Shown one piece after another: positions 5,731 to 20,240 of a DNA stretch of 64,000 nucleotides; positions within the stretch are counted from its first letter, which is position 1; each line of letters starts with the position of its first letter. Location: assembly GCF_030028105.1 (NCBI RefSeq), contig NC_092398.1, positions 11,654,600 to 11,718,599 of the forward strand. The letters are read 5' to 3'. The translations under genes were made by a program, and so were the position numbers. This stretch comes from Mobula birostris (lineage: Eukaryota). The notes under the pieces are model-generated. The model saw nothing but the letters and a program-made list of their open reading frames with translations. It made no database searches and was not told where the DNA came from.

Positions 5731-8700
5731 GGACTTCCGGGGTCGAGTATGGAGTGAGTCGGTGCGTGTGAGTGTGGCTTCCGATTTTTATTGAAAATCT
5801 ACCTGTTTATCTTTGCCGTATGCTCGAGACCATTGTGAACAATGCGGGACATAGCTGGTCATTGAAATGGCAAGTAGAATGTACCTTCGAAGTAAAACTG
5901 GGGAAAAAGATAGCGAAGCCTCCAGCAAGAAGGTGGATGTTACAGTAATGGCGCCGTTGCACGCTGCTGGAGCTGGACCCGGACCTGCGCTACCCGACGA
6001 CTTGGAGAGCCTTCGTTTAAGTACTTATTTCTGACATGACGCAAGCGGTGCATTCTGCCCTAAAAAGAGAACCTGAAGATGCTTTATCGCCAGTGAATGC
6101 TACCATGGAACAAATTATGTCTGTTTATGAGTCACACGACCAACGCATTCGTGGGGTTGAAGACGGCCTGAATGATTACAGTGACCGACTGGTGAGCGCC
6201 GAAGCCGCCATTGCAGCGTTGCAGAGCGAAAACGCATTTCTGAGGGAAAGCTTGATGACCTCGAAAATCGGTCGCAGAGATCCAATTTGAGAGTGGTCGG
6301 CATTCCTGAAAATTTGGAAGGTTCGGACCCTGTTAAATTTATGACCGAGTTTTTTGACGAAGTGCTGGGGACAAATTTTTTCCCAAGTTCTGTCGTACTT
6401 TCGCGTGCTCACCGAGTCGGACATAAACCATCCGGTGTTTCTGGAGCCAAGCAAACGAGACCAAGAACGTTCCTGGTTTGCTTTCACTCCTTTCAAGATA
6501 AGCAACGCATCATCAATAGACGGAAGCAGGAGCCGTATTTCCGCGGACACCGCGTGTTTTTTTATGAAGATTTTAGTGCGGAGCTGGGCAAAAAACGAGC
6601 AGCTTTCAAGGAGGTGAAATCCCTGCTTTACGGGAAAGGAGTCAGGTTTGGCCTCTTGTATCCTGCCCAGCTCCGGGAGGTCATGCATGAAGGTGAAAAG
6701 CATTATTTCGATACACCAGGGGCGGCCAAAGAGTTTTACCATTCGCGCTGGGGAGAAGAAGAATGAGAAGAGCAATGACTTTTTTTTAGGTTATTCATGC
6801 AGCATGGAAGGGGCCTCATGCCCAGGCAAACTGTTAATTTTCACAATCCACTTCTTTGTTCATTTTTTCCAGTTTAATTTGTGGAACGCGATCGGGTGGA
6901 ACTGCTATGCTGCCGAAACTGATTAACAAAAACTTTCAACCAGCAAAATGTAAATATTTGGGATTTGTATCTCGGGCGTTTAAGTTGCCTAGTGTGTTTT
7001 TCTTTTGTTTTTAATGCTTAGCTTGACCTGTGTCATCTTTAGCCTATATGTTATATTAAAAGTAGTATAAGTGATAGGATAAATGTTAAGGAGGGGAGCC
7101 ACCCTAGATTAGATTGAAAGTTGGGCTGTATGGAGAACACCTTGGAAGTTTTTTGTTGGGTACTGCCTGTGATCATCCTCAATTGGGGAGGTAGATTTAG
7201 GTTTCGGGGGTTAATTGGGTTTTTTTTGTTGTTTGTGTAAAGGGGTGGGGGGAGTGTTTTGGGGGATTACCATGGCAGTTTATTCTTTTGTGTGTTACGG
7301 ATTGATCAGACTTTCTTTTCATTGTGCGTTATTGTGTGCAACTTATGCCCTCGCACTGTTTTGCATTGTAGGTCCTGTGTGTCTTTTGATACGGTTAACG
7401 TGAGTGCTGCTGATGGAGGCCACCCTGTGAGGTTTATTTCTTGGGATGTAAAGGGGCTCAATGGTCCGGTTAAAAGAGCTAAAGTTTTCTCTCATCTCAA
7501 ACAATGAAAAGCAGATATACTATTTCTACAAGGGACACATTTAAGAGTGGAGGACCATAATAGACTTCGTAAAGCGCGGATTAGTCAGGTTTTTCATTCC
7601 AGATTTAATAGTAGGTCCAGGGGGGTGGCAATATTAATCGCCAAAAGAATGCAGTTCACACCATCTGATGTAATCAGTGATCCTAATGGTCGCTTTATTA
7701 TAGTCTCTGGTTCTCTCTTTCAGATACCTGTTATTTTGGTAAATGTTTATGCTCCTAATTGGGACGGTGTCCAATTTGCAAATAGGGTTGTGTCATTAAT
7801 ACCTAACCTGAATGCACATAAGCTAATCTTTTCCAGAGATTTAAACTGTGCTATTGATCCACTGCTTGATAGGTCTTGCCCTAGGGGAACATTTTCAGGT
7901 ATGGTAAAAGCCTTCTCGATGTTTATGCAACAAAATGGTTATATGGATCCTTGGAGATTTTTGAATCCATCAGTTAGGCAATTCTCTTTCTTCTCTCATG
8001 TTGACCACTCCTATTCCAGGCTAGACTATTTCTTTATAGATAACTCCTTGATACCAATGATTAGACAAATTGAATACACTGCTATAGTTATATCTGATCA
8101 CTCGCCCGTGAAACTGGACCTAAGTTTTCCTTTAAATGTTAGAGAACGGCCTCTGTGGAGACTTAACCCCCTTTTGCTTTCTAATGAGAAATTTTGTAGT
8201 TATATATCGGCTAACATTGACACATTCTTCGAGACTAATAAAACTGAGTCGGTATCGTACTCTTTACTTTGGGAAACTTTAAAAGCTTACTTGAGGGGTC
8301 AAATAATATCTTATACTTCACATGCCAAAAACGAGCGTAGGAAGGAAATGCAAGTGTTATTGCAATCTATTTTGGACCTGGATAGAAAATACTCTGAGGC
8401 ACCCACTGCGGAATTATATAAAAGCCCGGTTGATTTCCAAGCGAAGTTAAATCTTCTATCTACAAACCTATCAGAACAATTAATTCTTAAGACACATGGC
8501 CTCTATTATGAATACGGTGACAAGGCGAGCTGGCTTATGGCTCATCAGTTGAAACGTCAAGCTGCATCACGACTTATTCCCCAGATAAGAGACACGCACC
8601 AGAACTTGACAAGCAATCCAAAAGAGATTAATAACATCTTTGCAACTTTTTATTCCTCTCTGTATGCCTCAGAGTTCCCCCTCACGTAAAACAAATATGG

Positions 8701-11526
8701 AACGTTTTTTAGATAATTTGGAAATACCAACTCTTGAACCAGAGGAGGTGGAGAACCTAGATCGGGCTCTTGGGCAGGAAGAGATTAATAATGCCATTAT
8801 GGCTATGCAGAGTGGTAAGTCCCCAGGTCCTGATGGTTGCCCAACAGAATTTTATAAGAAATTTAAGGATAAGCTCATACCGGTCCTTCTAGAAGTGTTT
8901 CAGGAATCTTTGGAGAACAGCTCCTTACCCCCTACTCTTTCACAGGCAGCTATTTCACTACTTCTTAAAAAGGACAAGGACTCAACTCAATGTGGATCAT
9001 ATTGCCCCATCTCACTTTTGAATGTAGATATGAAAATTTTGGCTGAAGTGCTTGCATGTCATTTAGAACGTCCCCTTCCCAAGATAATTTCAGATGATCA
9101 AACAGGTTTTATTAAAAATCACTATTCTTTTTTTAATATCTGTCGACTGGCTGATGTGGTTTATTCACCCAGTGATTCTCCAAGTCCAGAGGTTGTTATC
9201 TCCTTGGACGCAGAGAAGGCGTTTGATAGTGGAGTGGGTATACTTGTTTAGTGTTTTGGAGAAATTTGGATTTGGCAGAATATTTATAGCTTGGGTTAAG
9301 CTATTATACCACTCGCCCTTAGCATGTGTACAGACAAATTATTTTCGATCTGACGATTTCCCATTAACACGTGGCACTCGCCAAGGCTGCCCATTGTCCC
9401 CTCTTCTTTTTGCAATTGCAATTGAGCCTCTTTCTATTGCACTTAAGTCAACTACATGGTTCAAGGTGTTAGAAGAGGGGACATGGAACACCATGTATCC
9501 CTATATGCTGATGACCTCTTACTTTATGTTAGCGACCCTGTAGGTAGTAGTCCTGCTATTGTGTCATTATTAGGTCAATTTGGAGCCTTCTCTGGCTATA
9601 AACTGAACTTTCAAAAAAGCAAATGCTTTCCCATTAATAACTTGGCCCTACAGATCCCACAGGAATCCTTGCCTTTTCCTTTATCTCAAGATGGTTTTGT
9701 ATACCTAAGAATACATATTACTCGCTCTTTTACATCTCTGTTTGAAGCTAACTACAGGCCTCAGGTTAGCCAAATGAAGGCTGATTCGAGAGATGGTGCA
9801 GTTTACCCCTTGCTATAGCTGGGAGAATTCAGTCAGTGAAAATGGCTATAGTTCCTAGATTTCTCTATTTGTTTCAGTGTTTGCCAGTTTTCCTATCTAA
9901 GTTATTTTTTAAATCAGTTGACCAAGCTATAACCTCCTTCATTTGGGAAAATAAGATCCCAAGGGTCAGTAAGCACACTCTCCAAAGAGGTCGTGACGTA
10001 GGTGGAATGGGTCTTCCCAGCTTTATTCATTATTACTGGGCATCGAACATTCAAAAAGTATTATTTTGGCTTCACCGGCCAGATATAATCTGGTGCCTGC
10101 TTGAGTCACGGTCTTGCCACTCCTCATCTCTCCCAGCTTTGGTGTATTCTTCCTTACCATTGAAATCCTCTCAATTCACATCTAACTCGGTCGTGCTCTC
10201 CACCCTCAAAATCTTTAATCAATTTCGCTGCCACTGTAAGTTCATATCAGCTTCAGTTTTGGGTCCCATTCATAAAAACCATTTATTTCCTCCCTCCACA
10301 TTCGATTTGGCTTTCAGACAATGGGGTTTGAATGGTCTTATGTGCATTAAGGATTTGTATACTGATAACATATTTGATAGTTTTGATAACCTGAGCGGTA
10401 AGTATGGCCTTCTGCATAATCATTTTTTAAAATACCCGCAGATTCGTCACTTTGTCAAGGAAAAATTTCCCTCGTTTCCTGATCTACCACCTGCTATGTT
10501 ATGGGAAAAATTCACTCTTAGCTTTAACAATAAGGGGCTGATCTCTGAACTATACTCTCAGCTGATGTCTTTGGGAGTTCAAGATCTAAACAAAACTAAG
10601 AGTACGTGGGAGGATGACCTCAGTATGGATCTGGCGGAGGAATATTGGGCAAAAGTATTGAATAGGGTTCATTTCTCATCATCATGTGCTAGACTGGGGC
10701 TCATACAATTTAAAGTTTTACACAGGGTACATTTAAGTAAAGCCAGACTGGCAGACATATACCCTGGGACAGACACTGGCTGTGACAGGTGTTCCTTCTC
10801 TCCGGCTGGTTTAGTACATGCATTTTGGTCTTGCCCTCAGCTTGATGACTAATGGACACTGGTTTTTAAAATTATCAGTGAGGTTTTGGGAGTGACACTG
10901 AGACCTTGCCCGCTTATAGCTGTATTTGGTGCGGCAGATGATGATTTGAGTTTAAATGCAAGCCAGTCAGATATCATTGCATTTACATCGCTATTGGCCT
11001 GTAGGAGAATTTTGCTGGTTTGGAAATCTGCCACTCCCCCAACTGCTGCTGCTTGGCTAGAAGATGTAATGTTTTTTCTGAAATTAGAAAAGATTAAATT
11101 CACTTTCAGGGAGTCTGTGAAAAAGTTCTATTCGAAATGAGGACCTTTATCATCATATTTTGGGAGTCTTAAGGAATTACCTACTAGTTGAGGGCATTTG
11201 ATTGTACTTGGGAAGTTGCCTCCCATTTAACACGCTTATAATTTACCTCACAGGGTGGTTGATGAATTGTAAATATGAGTGTATTTTGGATCATCTGACA
11301 TGTTGCAGATGTGTGTGAGCCGTCATCTTGAAGTAGTGTGGGGGTATGGTTGTGAAATGTCTGTACTTGTATTTGTGAATTGTTGTGTTGTAAATATATT
11401 AGCTGCCATGATATGTTCGGGGAGGGCGGGTGGGGGTGGGGGAGGTTTGTTTTGCAAAATGGAGGAAAATGTAATCTATTATATATTCTGTATTGTGTCA
11501 TTCCTTCAATAAAAATAAATTTTAAA
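5731..11526 (+). mobile_element. Full-length, decayed L1-clade LINE in XKR8 intron 1 (antisense to the gene)
   Basis: ORF1 from ATG 5867 to 6766 (NLRVVGIPE RRM); ORF2 ~7400-11185 with APE endonuclease, RT (QGCPLSPLLF, YADD) and CCHC, broken by frameshifts and stops; AATAAA/A tail; TSD aaaggcagcagagt (5717-5730) / aaagacagcagagt (11527-11540). Confidence 0.93.
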
Positions 11527-11911: not shown

Positions 11912-12237
11912 CTGATCAGGAACCCCAGCTGCAACCAGTGTAACAGGCCCAAGACGCAGTCTCCTGGCGTGGTCTTCAACTTTGCTAACAGCCCGGAGTT
12001 GAAATAACTCCGCTGCTCCCGGTCCCCAGCGAACCAAAACCAGCTGAACAGTTGGACGACCGCCGAGCACAGCAGCGCCAGACTCAACACTATGCTGCCC
12101 CAAAAATAATCTCCGGCTAGGTAGAAGGAGATCATTACCCAGGCATCAGTCCCAAGGTCCAGAAGGAAAGTGCCCATACCGAAACCGATAAAGAAGAGGT
12201 CGACAACAGAGAAACGAACCGCATTGTTCGGGTACAT
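11912..12237 (-). CDS. XKR8: XK-related protein 8 (phospholipid scramblase), coding exon 1
   Basis: ATG at 12237; MYPNNAVRFSVVDLFFIGFGMGTFLLDLGTDAWV...VQLFSWFWF...LLHWLQLGFLIR matches the XK-family N-terminal TM pattern; donor AG|GTCAGT at 11911 (phase 2); synteny with SMPDL3B and RPA2. Confidence 0.88.
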
Positions 12238-12463
12238 TTTTTTTGGTACAAAACTTCCGGGGAAAAGTTAACTGCTATTTATTCTGGAGCTGACTCTTAG
12301 TGTTCTCTGTAACATTTGCCCCTCCCGACATACTTCGGCTTCGTGTCGTCGCTGCCCGCTCTGCATAACTAACTTTCTTCCACTGTTAACTCACCAAAGG
12401 TCTTTTCACTCCTGTAGGGCAAACGAAACCAGACAAGAGTGGACACGGCTTAAATATTCCCTT

Positions 12464-12478
12464 TGGCACCCTCTAGTG
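12464..12478 (-). promoter_or_regulatory. CTCF-like motif upstream of XKR8
   Basis: Minus strand CACTAGAGGGTGCCA resembles the CTCF core consensus; motif match only. Confidence 0.45.
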
Positions 12479-12526
12479 TTATTTCCCAAACTCTTAAGAA
12501 AATCTTCCAGGAAGAAAACTCTCTTC

Positions 12527-12625
12527 CTGGAAGCTGTTGCTTATCTGCATCAAAATGGAATTGTTCATCGTGATCTCAAACCCGAAAACCTCCTCTAGGC
12601 GTCTCCAGCTCCAGATGCATTATTA
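12527..12625 (+). pseudogene. Isolated CAMK4-like protein kinase fragment (catalytic loop)
   Basis: Translates [32 protein letters not shown] with an in-frame TAG at 12596; HRDLKPEN catalytic loop followed by the CaMK4-type PAPDA segment. Confidence 0.85.
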
Positions 12626-13013
12626 GTCATAGTCATGGTCATACTTTATTGATCCCGGGGGAAATTGGTTTTCGTTACAGTTGCACCATAAATAATTAAA
12701 TAGTAATATGTAAATTATGCCAGGAAATAAGTCCAGGACCAGCCTTCTGGCTCAGGGTGCCTGACCCTCCAAGGGAGGAGTTGTAAAGTTTGATGGCCAC
12801 AGGCAGGAATGACTTCCTATGATGCTCTGTGCTGCATCTCGGAGGAATGAGCCTCTGGCTGAATGTACTCCTGTGCCCACCCAGTACATTATGTAGTGGA
12901 TGGGAGACATTGACCAAGATGGCATGCAACTTAGACAGCATCCTCTTTTCAGACACCACTGTGAGAGAGGCCAGTTCCATCCCCACAACATTACTGGCCT
13001 TACGAATGAGTTT
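12626..13013 (-). mobile_element. Rex1/Babar LINE 3' end
   Basis: KLIRKASNVVG...SHPLH...RKSFLPVAIKLYN; AATAAA and (ACTATG)n tail; cut off by the Penelope insertion. Confidence 0.8.
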
Positions 13014-13117
13014 AAACGCAAACAACAGGAATTCTGCAGATGCTGGAAATTCAAGCAACACACATCAAAGTTGCTGGTGAACGCAGCAGGCCAGGCAGCA
13101 TCTCTAGGAAGAGGTGC

Positions 13118-13153
13118 AGTCGACGTTTCAGGCCGAGACCCTTCGTCAGGACT
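13118..13153 (-). ncRNA. Minimal type I hammerhead ribozyme in the Penelope terminal repeat
   Basis: AGTC CTGACGA AGG GTCTCGG CCT GAAA CG TC GACT: helix I, CUGANGA, helix II, GAAA, palindromic ACGT, GUC cleavage triplet. Confidence 0.85.
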
Positions 13154-16100
13154 AACTGAAGGAAGAGTGAGTAAGAGATTTGAAAGTTGGAGGGGGAGGG
13201 GAAGATCCAAAATGATAGGAGAAGACAGGAGGGGGAGGGATGGAGCCAAGAGCTGGACAGGTGATTGGCAAAAGGGGATACTAGAGGATCATGGGACAGG
13301 AGGTCTGGGAAGAAAGACAAGGGGGCGGGACCCAGAGGATGGGCAAGAGGTATATTCAGAGGGACAGAGGGAGAAAAAGGAGAGTGAGAGAAAGAATGTG
13401 TGTATAAAAATAAGTAACAGATGGGGTACAAGGGGGAGGTGGGGCCTAGCGGAAGTTAGAGAAGTCGATGTTCATGCCATCGGGTTGGAGGCTACCCAGA
13501 GGGAATATAAGGTGTTGTTCCTCCAACCTGAGTGTGGCTTCATCTTTACAGTAGAGGAGGCCGTGGATAGACATGTCAGAATGGGAATGGGATGTGGAAT
13601 TAAGATGTGTGGCCACTGGGAGATCCTGCTTTCTCTGGCGGACAGAGCGTAGATGTTCAGCAAAGCGGTCTCCCAGTCTGCGTCGGGTCTCGCCAATATA
13701 TAAAAGGCCACATCGGGAGCACCGGACGCAGTATATCACCCTAATCGACTCACAGGTGAAGTGTTGCCTCACCTGGAAGGACTGTTTGGGACCCTGAATG
13801 GTGGTAAGGGAGGAAGTGTAAGGGCATGTGTAGCACTTGTTCCGCTTACACGGATAAGTGCCAGGAGGGAGATCAGTGGGGAGGGATGGGGGGGACGAAT
13901 GGACAAGGGAGTTGTGTAGGGAGCGATCCCTGTGGAATGCAGGGGGGGGGGAGGGAAAGATGTGCTTAGTGGTGGGATCCCGTTGGAGGTGGCGGAAGTT
14001 ACGGAGAATAATATGTTGGACCCGGAGGCTGGTGGGGTGGTAGGTGAGGACCAGGGGAACCCTATTCGTAGTGGGGTGGCGGGAGGATGGAGTGAGAGCA
14101 GATGAACATGAAATGGGGGAGATGCGTTTAAGAGCAGAGTTGATAGTGGAGGAAGGGAAGCCCCTTTCTTTAAAAAATGAAGACATCTCCCTCGTCCTAG
14201 AATGAAAAGCCTCATCCTGAGAGCAGATGCGGCGGAGACGGAGGAATTGCGAGAAGGGGATGGCGTTTTTGCAAGAGACAGGGTGAGAAGAGGAATAGTC
14301 CAGATAGCTGTGAGAGTCAGTAGGCTTATAGTAGACATCAGTGGATAAGCTGTCTCCAGAGACAGAGACAGAAAGATCTAGAAAGGGGAGGGAGGTGTTG
14401 GAAATGGACCAGGTAAACTTGAGGGCAGGGTGAAAGTTGGAGGCAAAGTTAATAAAGTCAACGAGTTCTGCGTGCGTGCAGGAAGCAGCGCCAATGCAGT
14501 CGTCGATGTAGCGAAGGAAAAGTGGGGGACAGATACCAGAATAGGCACGGAACATAGATTGTTCCACAAACCCAACAAAAAGGCAGGCATAGCTAGGACC
14601 CATACGGGTGCCCATAGCTACACCTTTAGTTTGGAGGAAGTGGGAGGAGCCAAAGGAGAAATTATTAAGAGTAAGGACTAATTCCGCTAGACCGAGCAGA
14701 GTGGTGGTAGAGGGGAACTGATTAGGTTTGGAATCCAAAAAGAAGCGTAGAGCTTTGAGACCTTCCTGATGGGGGATGGAAGTATATAAGGACTGGACAT
14801 CCATGGTGAAAATAAAGCGGTGAGGGCCAGGGAACTTAAAATCATCGAAAAGTTTAAGAGTGTGAGAAGTGTCACGGACATAGGTCGGAAGGGATTGAAC
14901 AAGGGGTGATAAAACAGTGTCGAGGTATGCAGAAATGAGTTCGGTGGGGCAGGAGCAAGCTGAGACAATAGGTCAGCCAGGACAGGCAGGTTTATGGATC
15001 TTGGGTAGGAGGTAAAAACGGGAAGTGCGGGGTGTGGGAACTATAAGGTTGGCAGCAGTGGATGGGAGATCCCCTGAGTGGATAAGGTCGGTGATGGTGT
15101 GGGAGACAATGGCCTGGTGCTCCTTAGTGGGGTCACGATTGAGGGGTAAATAAGAGGAGGTATCTGCGAGTTGTCGCTGTGCCTCAGCAAGGTAGAGGTC
15201 AGTACGCCAGACTACAACAGCACCCCCCTTATCGGCGGGTTTAATAATAAAGTTAGGATTAGTGCGGAGGGAGTGGAGAGCAGAGCGTTCGGAAGGAGTG
15301 AGGTTGGAATGGGGACAAGGTGCGGTGAAGTCAAGACGGTTGATGTCCCGTCGGCAATTAGCGATAAAGAGATCCAGAGCAGGCAGAAGACCAGAGCGGG
15401 GTGTCCATGAAGAAGAGGAGGGTTGAAGACGGGAGAAGGGGTCATCGGTGGGGGTGGAAGAGTCCTTGCCGAAGAAGTAGGCTCGGAGACGGAGACGGCG
15501 GAAGAAAAGTTCCGCATCATGGCGAACAGGGCCCTCGGAGGCTCCATCTTCCTCTCACCCCAACCCTCCCCTCTCCATTGACACCCCCAGCCTCCCCCCT
15601 CCCCCCTCTGATCGCAGCTCTCATCCTTGCCGGGTCTTTACCATCCCCTCCGACCTTCAACTGTCAGAGGCAGAACACTCGGTCCTCAGTAAGGGCCTCA
15701 CCTTTGTCCCCCTTCGCCCACACCTCAGCGAGTTCCGTGTTCGCCATTTCCGACACCTCCCTCCCCTTTCTAGATCTTTCTGTCTCTGTCTCTGGAGACA
15801 GCTTATCCACTGATGTCTACTATAAGCCTACTGACTCTCACAGCTATCTGGACTATTCCTCTTCTCACCCTGTCTCTTGCAAAAACGCCATCCCCTTCTC
15901 GCAATTCCTCCATCTCCGCCGCATCTGCTCTCAGGATGAGGCTTTTCATTCTAGGATGAGGGAGATGTCTTCATTTTTTAAAGAAAGGGGCTTCCCTTCC
16001 TCCACTATCAAATCTGCTCTTAAACGCATCTCCCCCATTTCACGTACATCTGCTCTCACTCCATCCTCCCGCCACCCCACTAGGAATAGGGTTCCCCTGG

Positions 16101-17006
16101 TCCTCACCTACCACCCCACCAGCCTCCGGGTCCAACATATTATTCTCCATAACTTCCGCCACCTCCAACGGGATCCCACCACTAAGCACATCTTTCCCTC
16201 CCCCCCTCTCTCTGCATTCCACAGGGATCGCTCCCTACACAACTCCCTTGTCCATTCGTCCCCCCCATCCCTCCCCACTGATCTCCCTCCTGGCACTTAT
16301 CCGTGTAAGCGGAACAAGTGCTACACATGCCCTTACACTTCCTCCCTTACCACCATTCAGGGCCCCAAACAGTCCTTCCAGGTGAGGCAACACTTCACCT
16401 GTGAGTCGACTGGGGTGATATACTGCGTCCGGTGCTCCCGATGTGGCCTTTTATATATTGGCGAGACCCGACGCAGACTGGGAGACCGCTTTGCTGAACA
16501 TCTACGCTCTGTCCGCCAGAGAAAGCAGGATCTCCCAGTGGCCACACATTTTAATTCCACATCCCATTCCCATTCTGACATGTCTATCCACGGCCTCCTC
16601 TACTGTAAAGATGAAGCCACACTCAGGTTGGAGGAACAACACCTTATATTCCCTCTGGGTAGCCTCCAACCTGATGGCATGAACATCGACTTCTCTAACT
16701 TCCACTAGGCCCCACCTCCCCCTCGTACCCCATCTGTTACTTATTTTTATGCACACATTCTTTCTCTCTCTCTCCTTTTTCTTCCTCTGTCCCTCTCACT
16801 ATACCCCTTGCCCATCCTCTGGGCTTTTCCCCCCTCCCCCTTTTCTTTCTCCCTTGGCCTCCTGTCCCATGACCCTCTCATATCCCTTTTGCCAATCACC
16901 TGTCCAGCTCTTGGCTCCATCCCTCCCCCTCCTGTCTTCTCCTATCATTTCGGATCTCCCCCTCCCCCTCCCACTTTCAAATCTCTTACTAACTCTTCCT
17001 TCAGTT

Positions 17007-17042
17007 AGTCCTGACGAAGGGTCTCGGCCCGAAACCTCGACT
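17007..17042 (+). ncRNA. Minimal hammerhead ribozyme, second Penelope arm (palindrome mutated)
   Basis: AGTC CTGACGA AGGGTCTCGGCCC GAAA CC TC GACT. Confidence 0.7.
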
Positions 17043-17711
17043 GTATCTCTTCCTAGAGATGCTGCCTGGCCTGCTGCGTTCACCAGCAACTGTGATGTGT
17101 GTGACTTATATAAATGCTGCCTTTATAGAGTATAAGGGGTATAAATACTGTGAATGCATGAAATCATTTTCCCCTCAGGTTGGTTGAGACTAGAACTACA
17201 GATCATAGGTTTAGAAGGAAAAGTAAAATATTTAAGAGACATCTGGGGTTGGGGAGGGGAGTCTTCTTCACTCAGAGGGTGGTATGAGTGTGGGATGAGC
17301 AGCCAGCAGGAATAGTAGATACATGTTTAATTGTAACACTTAAGAGAATTTCACATAGCCTGTTTCTGTGCTGTAGTTTTTCTATGGTTTCTATGTGTGC
17401 AGGTCAGTGGGACTAGGCAGAAAATGGTTCGGCACAGCCAGGAAGGGCCAAAAGGCCTGTTTCTGTGCTGTAGTTTTTCTATGGTTTCCAAAATCCTGCA
17501 ACCCTTAAGTGGCTTCTTCATCCCATATATATCTCAAAGTTCAAAGTAAATTTAATATCAAAATGCATATATGTTACCTTGAAATTCATTTTCTTACAGG
17601 TATTTTCTCACAGGGGAAAATAAATACAATAGAATTTTATTTTAAGCTATACTTAAACGAAAGTCGATGAATACCAATACGTAAAAAAAAGATAGCGTAA
17701 ATATATATATA

Positions 17712-20082
17712 TTTTAAATATTTTATTTATGATTTTCTACAAAGTACAGCATAGAAGAAAAAAATCAATGGTATAAATAGGATCATTGCAATACAGACAA
17801 AAATAACAATAATACATACCTTAACAAATGAGCAAGTCACCCATGTTAAAAATGAAAAAATAAAAAGGAAAGCACCCAACCCATCCACTATCCAACTCCA
17901 AGCCAACTTATATTATAAGTATACATATTTGAAAGGACATTTGAGATAAACTTTTATCACCCCAGAGCTATACATTGTAGTAAAAAAATGAACAATAATA
18001 ATAATTTAAAAAACAGCCTGCTAGCTAATCAAAGAAAGCTGGAAATGCCGGATCTGACAATCAAGGGAAGAAAAAAAATACACCTGTCAATCTGGATGAG
18101 AATTATGAAAATATTCAAGGAAAGGTCCCCACACCTTATGGAACTTTATGTCCGAATTAAAAAGTGAATACTAAATCTTTTCAAGATCTAAACAAGACAT
18201 AATATCCCTAAGCCATTGAACATTGGGTGGGGGGAACTTCATCTCTCCACTTAAGGAGTACTGCACGTCTAGCTAAAAGAGAGGCAAAAGACAATGTTCG
18301 TTGTTTAGCTGGGATCAAATGCTTGTCAGAGTCTCGAGAAATACTGAAAAGAGCCATCAAAGGATCAGGTTCCAAATGACTATTTAATATAGAAGATAAA
18401 GTTAAAAAAAATCTTTCCAAAATTCTTCCAAAGAAGGACAAGCCCAATACATATGAACAAGGGAAGCCCCACCTCCTTTGCACTTGTCACACCAGGGACT
18501 AATATCAGGATAAAACTTCGCCAGTTTGGTTTTAGACATATGAGCCCTGTGGTCAACTTTAAACTGCAAAATACAATGACAAGCACATAAAGAAGTTGAA
18601 TTGACTGACTTAAGAATTGAATCCCAAACCTCATCGGACAAAGAAAACCAAAGTCATGCTCCCAAGCAGTTTTAATTTTATCACAAGGGGCTCATCTGAG
18701 ATTCATAAATTTGACATGAATAGTAGAAATTAAACCTTTAACCAAGGGGTTCATTTGAAGAAACAAGACTACAACATTTTTATCAGGTTGTTCAGGAAAA
18801 TGTGGTATTAAAGGGCTAATGAAATGTTGAATTTGAAGATATCTAAAAAATGAGTATTCAGTAAATTAAACTTTGTAGACAACCGTTCAAAAGTCACAAA
18901 CCGATTTATAAAAAGATCTTCAAAACGCCTGATACCTCTCCTACACCAGTCTTGGAATGTGGAATCCTGCATAGAAGGTTGAAATAAATGATTGTATGGA
19001 ATAGGACTAGAAAGGGAAAAACTATAAAGGCCATGATATTTTCTAAATTGAGCCCATATTCTCAGAGTATGCCTGATTACAGGATTAATAATAAATTTTG
19101 GCGGGTGGCAAAGAAGTGTAAATCCAAGTAAAGCTGGAATAGATAATTTCTTATAAGCATTCAATTCCATTGCCACCCATGTTGGACAAACAGACTGATT
19201 ATAAAAGTAGGACCAAAAGATAATATTGCGAATATTGGCTGCCCAATAATATGAAAGAAAATTAGGCAATGCCAAGCCACCTTCTCTTTTAGGCTTTTGA
19301 AGATGAGCTTTATTAAGTCTGGACTGTTCACTCTTCCACAGGTATGACGAGATAATAGAATCTAAAGAATCAAAAAAAACTTTAGGAATAAGTACAGGTA
19401 AAGATTGAAATAAGTATAAAAATTTAGGAAGAATATACATTTTAATTACATTAATTTGCCCAATTAAAGACATAGATAAAGGTGAACACTGTGCTAGATT
19501 CTGTTTTGTAAAATTTAAAAGATTATTGAAATTCTCATCAAAAAGGCGATTATAATTCCTTGTTACTATAATACCAAGATAAGTAAAACAATTGTTTACT
19601 ACTTTAAAAGGGACATTTTGGAATTCTAATGCTTGTGCTTCTTTATTTGTCGGAAAAGGTTCACTCTTATATAGATTAAGTTTGTATCCAGATAACTGAC
19701 TAAATTTATTAAGAAGTGAAAACATCAAAGGTAAGGTGGTCAGATTTGATATAAAAAGTAATAAATCATCGGCATATAGAGAGACTTTATGCTCAAGACC
19801 GCCCCTCCAAATCCCAGTCAGTTCAGTACAACTGCGAAACGCAATTGCCAATGGCTCGATAGCCAGATCAAATAGCAGAGGACTGAAAGGGCATCCTTGC
19901 CAGGTGCCACGTTTTAAGGTCAAACGGTTGGGATTGCTGAGAATTAGTTAAAACTGATGCAATTGAATGAGAATATAGTATCTTAATCCACTTAATAAAA
20001 TTATGTCCAAAATCAAATCTTCCTAAAACCGCAAATAAGTAGTGCCACTCCACCCGGTCAAATGCCTTTTCTGCATCGAGAA
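17712..20082 (-). mobile_element. 5'-truncated L1-clade LINE (RT to 3' end)
   Basis: [21 protein letters not shown] and CDKC...HMYWAC across frameshifted ORFs; A-rich tail; boundaries approximate. Confidence 0.9.
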
Positions 20083-20240
20083 ATAAGTATATATTTTTTA
20101 AAAACTGATGACTTGAATTGTAAAGAGTCCTCGAAAGTGAGCCTGTAGATGGTAGAGTCAGTGGTGAGTGGCATTATCCATGCTGGTCTAGAGAGTCAAA
20201 CCAAAACAGTATTTTACAAGCTGGAAGAATATATCTAGAG

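What the first reader, a model, noticed from the sequence alone, without database searches (positions are those of the whole stretch)
12527..12625. Orphan ~100 bp CAMK4-like kinase fragment ~290 bp upstream of the XKR8 start codon
Seen: [32 protein letters not shown] on the plus strand, missed by the ORF track. No other kinase sequence was noticed in the window. The fragment abuts a Rex1 tail on the right and a 12-bp inverted repeat on the left (cttccaggaaga/tcttcctggaag). Established (from recall): CaMK4 reads [33 protein letters not shown]. Inference: a piece of cellular mRNA or cDNA captured at a break or by RT template switching; it would be an RNA-templated insertion if it spans a parental exon junction.
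Basis: partly seen in the sequence, partly recalled or inferred. Interest (0 to 1): 0.7.

Follow-up and report, generated by a model that had tools for sequence, protein, structure and literature searches.

The report
Half-spliced CAMK4 copy with CR1 tail
A dead scrap of the CAMK4 kinase gene, missing one intron but keeping the start of the next, lies just upstream of XKR8 in a ray-like fish; it is an RNA copy, likely made when a CR1 retrotransposon's copying enzyme jumped onto the half-spliced CAMK4 RNA at an old CR1 remnant in that intron, a route by which sequence-picky retrotransposons could move host exons.

Summary
The fragment is real and RNA-derived. Window 12525-12625 joins the last 17 nt of one CAMK4 exon to 84 nt of the next; the parent's 19,848-nt intron is precisely absent. 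Only the parent and this copy were found. The copy is larger than reported: behind a Rex1-like and a Penelope-like insertion (4.5 kb) it resumes with the first 260 nt of the following intron (17101-17357), so the template was half-spliced RNA. It then ends in a 131-nt young CR1 tail in exact register with an old CR1 remnant of that intron; 0 of 15 similar tail copies show this. Best reading (0.55): CR1 reverse transcriptase started on its own tail and switched, guided by homology, to CAMK4 pre-mRNA. Main rival (0.25): a transcript ending at the remnant was mobilised, and its tail later replaced. The 'inverted repeat' is a locally templated junction patch and is a direct repeat in a related species, which shares the insertion. 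Rex1 is a later guest, not the driver. No function shown; no empty site found. The scan noted a related PPM1B case elsewhere in this genome (unchecked).

The parts
11950..12237 (-). XKR8-like first coding exon (part); ATG at 12237
   Evidence: Pfam XK-related E 3e-15; best PDB match XKR8 E 1.2e-11
12238..12405 (-). Likely XKR8 5' UTR; contigs of two runs guessed to be RNA (two species labels, two studies) stop at 12404 and 12405
12499..12504 (+). AAAATC, last bases of the left flank; the same hexamer opens the right flank (possible short target duplication, weak)
   Evidence: family-wide survey shows no clear duplications
12505..12524 (+). 20-nt junction patch copied from the left flank and from the insert's own start; holds the left arm of the reported inverted repeat
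   Evidence: 18 of 20 bases covered by local matches of 6 nt or more, reached by 0.04% of 20,000 shuffles; organism B has T at 12509
12525..12541 (+). Last 17 nt of the upstream CAMK4 exon ('exon 5'), 17 of 17 identical, followed by GT in the parent
   Evidence: G000 C21:23287449-23287465
12542..12625 (+). First 84 of 91 nt of the next CAMK4 exon ('exon 6'); differs at 12583 (silent) and 12598 (TAT to TAG stop)
   Evidence: G000 C21:23307314-23307397
12626..13013 (-). 5'-truncated non-LTR element (Rex1-like; label recalled), 3' tail against the CAMK4 exon; likely a later insertion
   Evidence: multi-copy, 95-96% to best copies; 11 of 384 columns differ from the majority of 19 copies; no Pfam hit
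13014..17102 (.). Penelope-like element, head-to-head inverted (minus 13018-15537; plus 15529-15746 and 15744-17102); likely one later insertion
   Evidence: RVT_1 E 1.4e-5 and GIY-YIG E 8e-4, both under the curated cut-offs; segment map; 21 of 1521 columns differ from family majority, 40 mismatches in 1351 between the two arms
17101..17357 (+). First 260 nt of CAMK4 'intron 6', from the donor GT; from about nt 25 it is an old CR1 3' remnant
   Evidence: 93.5% to G000 C21:23307405-23307664; other family copies at most 74% (38 others among 40 scored of 2997 candidates)
17358..17488 (+). Young CR1 3' end of the tandem-tail type (38 nt + 93 nt), in register with the intron's old CR1 remnant
17490..17498 (+). 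Start of right flank; 8 nt of it equal the parent exon sequence around the point where the copy begins
   Evidence: printed flanks; post hoc observation

Best explanation
This is a dead, single-copy RNA copy of half-spliced CAMK4 (exon end + exon + 260 nt of intron) fused to a young CR1 tail, likely made in one event in which CR1 reverse transcriptase began on its own RNA tail and likely switched onto nuclear CAMK4 pre-mRNA where an old CR1 remnant in the intron could pair with the new cDNA. SHOWN: spliced junction; retained intron start; source is the C21 gene; young CR1 tail in sense at the 3' end, in register with the remnant; locally templated 5' patch; insertion shared with a related species. 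INFERRED: (1) priming at the right flank on a CR1 RNA with a tandem tail; (2) after 131 nt the cDNA's 93-nt unit pairs with the homologous intron RNA, which places the cDNA end at intron nt 260; (3) synthesis runs through the intron start, the next exon and 17 nt across the spliced junction, then stops; (4) the 5' end is joined by stop-and-start end joining of the polymerase-theta type; (5) a Rex1-like and then a Penelope-like element insert at the A-rich end of the exon, with loss of 4-7 nt. No function is proposed: it has a stop, no start, and appears to lie about 100 nt outside the XKR8 transcript.
For: Junction: 17 of 17 nt match the upstream exon end followed by GT, then the next exon after AG; 19,848 nt of intron absent. 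Two places found among 2 candidates: this one and the parent. Intron piece 93-97% to the parent, next-best copies at most 87% and 74%. Register: the copy aligns without gaps to young CR1 copies, and within 1 nt to the parent, across the 38-nt unrelated block; 0 of 15 other tandem-tail copies have an in-register CR1 body upstream, 2 have an out-of-register one. Tail and gene piece are on the same strand, as template-switch chimeras are (bioRxiv 2025.02.02.635956, passages). Ages fit: 9-10 copy-lineage changes in 358 nt of CAMK4 sequence; the young CR1 family averages 93-97% pairwise identity; Rex1-like 2.9%, Penelope-like 1.4-2.3% from family majority; organism B differs at 14 of 704. Template switching by stringent LINEs is documented for U6-L2 in platypus, with 5'-truncated cellular part, short LINE part and small duplications (PMC4476161, passages).
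Against: The tail looks younger than the gene piece (1 of 131 against 9-10 of 358), though not significantly (Fisher p 0.30; the tail copies were picked by likeness, which lowers its figure). There is no microhomology at the switch point. The shared hexamer at the outer ends is weak: 25 short copies of this family gave only 0-6 nt best matches under generous offsets, i.e. no clear duplications, and no empty site was seen. No contig listed for organism B bridges the intron/tail or tail/flank joints. An in-register replacement can also arise at the DNA level. Exon and intron pieces are 4.5 kb apart and the break falls at the splice donor, so their original continuity is inferred.
Confidence: 0.55

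Rival explanations
1. A half-spliced CAMK4 transcript that ended at the old CR1 remnant in the intron was itself recognised and retrotransposed by CR1 proteins in trans, like a SINE. Later a young CR1 tail replaced the last ~125 nt in register, by insertion with deletion or by gene conversion.
For: The insert ends at the position homologous to the remnant's own 3' end. The remnant still folds into the same terminal stem-loop as the young tail, loop AAAG against AAAA (z -1.57, 11 of 200 shuffles as good). Stringent LINE proteins bind such a stem-loop (PMC4176376, abstract, shown for L2 elements). The tail has fewer changes than the gene piece. An unchecked note describes this route for PPM1B in the same genome (e1-8653818).
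Against: Needs two events, and a transcript ending inside the intron. The remnant is only 66% like the young family. In-register replacement was seen in 0 of 15 other tandem-tail copies.
Confidence: 0.25
2. A cDNA of CAMK4 pre-mRNA, made by any reverse transcriptase (L1-clade elements are present), patched a double-strand break (class 2 templated insertion). The CR1 tail arrived later and independently, deleting the original right end.
For: The 5' joint is a locally templated patchwork, the reported mark of polymerase theta (PMC12426944, passages). No poly(A), no clear duplication. Such patches include spliced cDNA and intronic sequence (PMC5110952, passages). Two long RT-bearing elements that look L1/Tx1-like lie in the window (clade recalled from motifs).
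Against: It leaves the exact register of tail and remnant to chance, or has to borrow the homology step of the other models. Microhomology-type 5' joints are also reported for ordinary LINE insertions (reference list and passage).
Confidence: 0.12
3. The exon piece and the intron piece were captured separately, for instance by template switching of the adjacent Rex1-like or Penelope-like enzyme (closest to the first reader's picture).
For: The intron piece starts exactly at the donor GT; 4-7 exon bases are missing; Penelope elements are reported to move intron-containing host genes (PMC3846280, passages).
Against: The Rex1-like element is antisense and meets the exon with its 3' tail. The Penelope-like block has the usual head-to-head form, with the tail at one end only, and looks younger than the CAMK4 pieces. 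The two pieces are colinear to within 7 nt.
Confidence: 0.05
4. DNA-level duplication from an intron-less allele or paralogue, or an assembly chimera.
For: None found.
Against: No second source in the assembly. A contig of organism B spans flank, junction, fragment and Rex1-like tail (11950-12653), and one of organism C spans 12321-12575. The copy carries its own substitutions.
Confidence: 0.02

Closest known systems
LINE/cellular-RNA chimeric retrocopies by template switching (U6-L1, U6-L2 of platypus: PMC4476161, passages; mRNA/L1 chimeras: bioRxiv 10.1101/2025.02.02.635956, passages)
   Same: Cellular RNA 5', LINE 3' end 3', same strand; 5'-truncated cellular part and short LINE part as in U6-L2; at most a small duplication.
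   Different: The LINE is CR1-type; the cellular part is an internal, half-spliced pre-mRNA piece, not an snRNA or first exons; the joint sits in register with a homologous remnant in the host intron, a feature not seen in the passages read.
Semi-processed (partly spliced) retrocopies and 5' transduction through an intronic LINE (RAP1GDS1/L1PA2, same preprint, passages)
   Same: One intron spliced out, the next retained; an intronic LINE copy in sense supplies or guides the 3' end.
   Different: The tail in the copy is not the parent's intronic copy but a much younger relative; no poly(A); about 500 nt in all.
Class 2 templated sequence insertions (PMC5110952, passages)
   Same: Short RNA-derived piece from another chromosome, end-joining marks at the 5' joint, no poly(A).
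   Different: The 3' end is a retroelement tail in register with the source, which a plain break patch does not predict.
HE1 SINE / HER1 LINE pair of sharks and rays (table row in PMC3747384)
   Same: An RNA gains mobility through a shared LINE 3' tail in the same animal group.
   Different: A single event with a host pre-mRNA, no amplification. Whether this CR1 family is HER1 was not tested.

Membership tests
Retrocopy (RNA-derived gene copy) | Precise loss of a parental intron | tested here: met
   17 nt | 84 nt joined at GT-AG borders, 19,848 nt absent
Retrocopy (RNA-derived gene copy) | Dispersed from an intact parent, not part of an amplified element | tested here: met
   Parent on C21, copy on C34; 2 matches among 2 candidates
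Classical L1-type processed pseudogene | All introns removed | tested here: not met
   260 nt of the next intron retained
Classical L1-type processed pseudogene | 3' poly(A) tract | tested here: not met
   Ends in a CR1-type TTTCTATGG tail
Template-switch LINE chimera | Cellular part 5', LINE 3' end 3', same orientation | tested here: met
Template-switch LINE chimera | Both parts bracketed by one target-site duplication | tested here: inconclusive
   6-nt repeat at the outer ends; family shows no clear duplications in 25 copies
Template-switch LINE chimera | Both parts arrived together (empty site lacks both; no intermediate state) | not testable with these tools
   Organisms B and C hold the left part; no outgroup DNA over the site was on offer
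Template-switch LINE chimera | Same age of both parts | tested here: inconclusive
   1 of 131 against 9-10 of 358, Fisher p 0.30
Class 2 templated sequence insertion | End-joining marks at the joints | tested here: met
   5' patch 18 of 20 nt locally templated
Class 2 templated sequence insertion | No retroelement-primed 3' end | tested here: not met
   A young CR1 tail ends the insert, unless it came later
Penelope-like element (middle block) | RT followed by C-terminal GIY-YIG; inverted terminal arrangement | tested here: met
   Both domains hit, below curated cut-offs; head-to-head arms as in PMC3846280 passages

The most novel reading that the evidence does not exclude
Old CR1 remnants lying in sense inside introns act as landing pads: an active CR1 reverse transcriptase hops, in register and guided by about 70% homology, from its own RNA onto nascent, half-spliced host pre-mRNA. 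This is a general route by which stringent LINEs copy host exons in CR1-rich vertebrate genomes, and this locus preserves a co-transcriptional splicing intermediate (long upstream intron gone, short downstream intron still in place) as a germline fossil.
Probability: 0.3. Interest if true: 0.7.

Novelty: new variant of a known kind. Interest (0 to 1): 0.45.

Why it matters
CR1 is held to be unable to copy ordinary mRNAs because it needs its own 3' tail, which is the usual account of why CR1-dominated genomes have few retrocopies (PMC5470649, passages, citing Suh 2015, which I did not read). This locus shows a host exon piece that ends in a CR1 tail, and it gives a countable signature: a young tail in register with an old intronic remnant. 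If that signature recurs, intronic LINE fossils set which host RNAs a stringent LINE can move. The locus itself looks inert; a 5-kb composite insert about 100 nt upstream of the apparent XKR8 start is a possible promoter change, untested.

Tried and rejected
Looked for more CAMK4 exons in the window: none of the other 8 stretches tested matched; exon 2 was not located. First read the middle block as two CR1 copies with twin priming; dropped when its protein showed RT plus GIY-YIG. Read the shared hexamer as a target duplication; downgraded after the family survey. Read the inverted repeat as a designed hairpin; rejected, because the motif is near-palindromic and one base turns it into a direct repeat in organism B; which state is ancestral is open. 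Sought an empty site: every DNA holder laid over the left end had the insertion (X9, X17; 2 of 12 DNA-type rows with half-way or larger shares were not all laid: of 24 listed runs 6 different ones were laid), so none was seen. No RNA holder was listed on record; runs X5, X7, X14 are only guessed to be RNA. Sought intron-retaining CAMK4 RNA: no contig of X7 or X14 covered 17120-17144; contigs show presence, not absence, so this carries no weight. A contig of organism B crosses 17102 with only 26 letters on the left, under the tool's 31-letter rule. Organism B had no cover at 17670-17800; not interpreted. A 6-nt likeness between the right flank and the old tail was judged chance by eye. Pfam could not assign the Rex1-like or the L1-like elements to a clade. 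Paper searches for a like case; the search for all of retrocop/intronic/CR1/pre-mRNA/template switch gave 0 papers, and cartilaginous/CR1/retrocop/shark gave 1 review on L1; the library lacks most subscription papers, and no supplements were opened.

Full report
1. Observation. Its first 23 residues match CaMK IV best in the PDB, CaMK1G nearly as well. A DNA search of the own genome (window = G000 C34:11654600-11718599) found one non-repeat match, C21:23307314-23307397, 98% over window 12542-12625. That stretch begins right after an AG acceptor. Motif scans of 200 kb around it recovered ten kinase exon stretches in order, reading as CAMK4 (exon 2 not located; exon numbers follow recalled human numbering). 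The gene on the minus strand with ATG at 12237 is XKR8-like, 288 nt from the fragment.

2. The fragment is an RNA copy. The 17 bases left of the exon match (12525-12541) are identical to the last 17 bases of the preceding CAMK4 exon, C21:23287449-23287465, which are followed by GT. The intron between them, 19,848 nt, GTAAGT...TGTAG, is absent. The copy differs from the parent at 12583 (silent) and 12598 (stop). A search with the fragment alone gave 2 matches among 2 candidates, copy and parent; the tool warns that counts are lower bounds.

3. The copy is larger than reported. Window 17101-17357 matches the first 260 nt of the intron that follows the same exon, from the donor GT (93.5%). From about nt 25 that intron is an old CR1 3' remnant, but the window copy comes from this very intron: 97% over 95 nt against at most 87% for other places (40 scored of 194 candidates), and 93% against at most 74% (40 of 2997). 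So the template had lost the long upstream intron and kept the next one (1,145 nt): a half-spliced transcript. Seven exon bases are missing between the two pieces; three of them may be shared with the neighbouring element's tail.

4. What splits it. 12626-13013 is a 5'-truncated, multi-copy element on the minus strand whose tail repeat touches the exon; 'Rex1' is a recalled label, Pfam gave nothing. 13014-17102 encodes RT plus GIY-YIG (both under cut-off) and is arranged head to head, with the terminal extension at one end only, the form described for Penelope elements (PMC3846280, passages; PMC11167929, abstract). Distances from the family majority: Rex1-like 11 of 384, Penelope-like 21 of 1521 and 5 of 218; the two arms differ at 40 of 1351. 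Both read best as later insertions at the A-rich exon end. That the break meets the donor site is not fully explained.

5. The 3' end. At intron nt 260 the parent match stops, and 17358-17488 is a young repeat end, 38 nt of tail plus a 93-nt unit, 95-99% like other copies. Longer copies carry a CR1-type RT frame (clade recalled from motifs) and average 93-97% pairwise identity. The old remnant is 66% like this family. The alignment shows the point: the copy runs without gaps from parent-derived sequence through the 38-nt unrelated block into the young unit, in exact register with young CR1 and within 1 nt of the parent. The insert thus ends where the remnant ends. Among 15 other tandem-tail copies none has an in-register CR1 body upstream; two have an out-of-register one. 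Both tails fold into the same stem-loop (z -2.68 young, -1.57 old).

6. The 5' end and the inverted repeat. Between the left flank (ending 12504) and the CAMK4 match lie 20 nt, 18 of which are covered by 6-nt or longer matches to the 40 nt on either side (8 of 20,000 shuffles reach this; the boundaries were chosen by eye). Such patchworks are reported as the mark of polymerase-theta end joining (PMC12426944, passages). The reported inverted repeat is part of the patch; organism B has T at 12509, which makes it a direct repeat, equally well templated (17 of 20). The hexamer AAAATC ends the left flank and opens the right flank, and the right flank shares 8 nt with the parent exon where the copy starts. 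The family as a whole shows no clear target duplications (25 copies, best matches 0-6 nt), so this is weak.

7. Age and spread. A contig of organism B spans 11950-12653 with 14 differences and none listed at the stop; one of organism C spans 12321-12575 with none. Polarised against 28 old family copies, 7 of 13 intron differences fall on the copy, 5 on the parent, 1 is open; with the 2 exon changes that is 9-10 of 358, about 2.6%. The tail has 1 of 131; the difference is not significant (p 0.30) but leans against one event. The order CAMK4 copy and Rex1-like, then Penelope-like, then the A/B split fits all figures.

8. Mechanism. Best (0.55): CR1 priming on its own tail, a homology-guided switch in register onto half-spliced CAMK4 RNA, truncation 17 nt past the spliced junction, end joining, then two later insertions. 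Rival 1 (0.25): a transcript ending at the remnant was mobilised in trans and its tail replaced later. Rival 2 (0.12): a break patch or L1-type copy with an unrelated later tail. Rivals 3 and 4 (0.05, 0.02): separate captures; DNA duplication or artefact. The RNA origin itself I put above 0.95, and a role of the CR1 remnant (best plus rival 1) at about 0.8.

9. Function. The piece has no start and carries a stop. XKR8 contigs from two studies stop at 12404 and 12405 (weak hint), which would leave the insert about 100 nt outside the transcript. An antisense or promoter role is not supported by anything here and was not tested.

10. Comparison. Template-switch chimeras are known for L1 and for stringent LINEs: U6-L2 in platypus, and one incompletely characterised U6-CR1 case in turkey (PMC4476161, passages). 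mRNA/L1 chimeras and mobilisation through an intronic L1 are described in human (bioRxiv 10.1101/2025.02.02.635956, passages). RNA-derived break patches are described (PMC5110952, passages). CR1's tail requirement is held to limit retrocopies (PMC5470649, passages; PMC4176376, abstract, for L2). I found no paper on an in-register switch at an intronic CR1 remnant (searches; open-access library only; no supplements opened). An unchecked note of this scan reports an unspliced PPM1B piece ending in an intronic CR1 tail elsewhere in this genome (e1-8653818); I did not test it and do not count it as support.

11. Verdict. A real, inert, half-spliced retrocopy with an unusually readable history: a new variant of a known kind. 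Interest 0.45; 0.7 if the in-register route proves general (probability 0.3).

Noticed in passing
window 13014-17102: Penelope-like insertion whose plus arm has an internal jump at a 4-nt microhomology (15744-15748), exactly where the minus arm begins; the two arms overlap by about 19 nt of reference sequence.
   Followed up: partly
window 17358-17488 and loci L034-L048: A CR1 subfamily with a tandem 3' end (tail + 93-nt unit, one shared junction) occurs as many very short 5'-truncated copies; its source element was not found.
   Followed up: partly
window 8000-11520 (+) and about 17900-20200 (-): Two long RT-bearing elements that look L1/Tx1-like, with long open frames; the first ends in an AATAAA and A-rich tail about 400 nt from XKR8 exon 1 sequence. 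RVT_1 hits in 2 of 4 frames scanned; clade recalled from motifs.
   Followed up: partly
window 12449-12458 (-): A TATA-like stretch about 45-50 nt upstream of the apparent XKR8 5' end; seen by eye.
   Followed up: no
L002:1-1140 (CAMK4 long intron, C21): Looks like the integrase end and terminal repeat of an LTR retrotransposon about 360 nt before the exon acceptor; seen by eye.
   Followed up: no
window 17101-17357 against the parent: Differences are uneven: 3 in the first 148 nt, 10 in the last 110 nt, on both lineages.
   Followed up: partly
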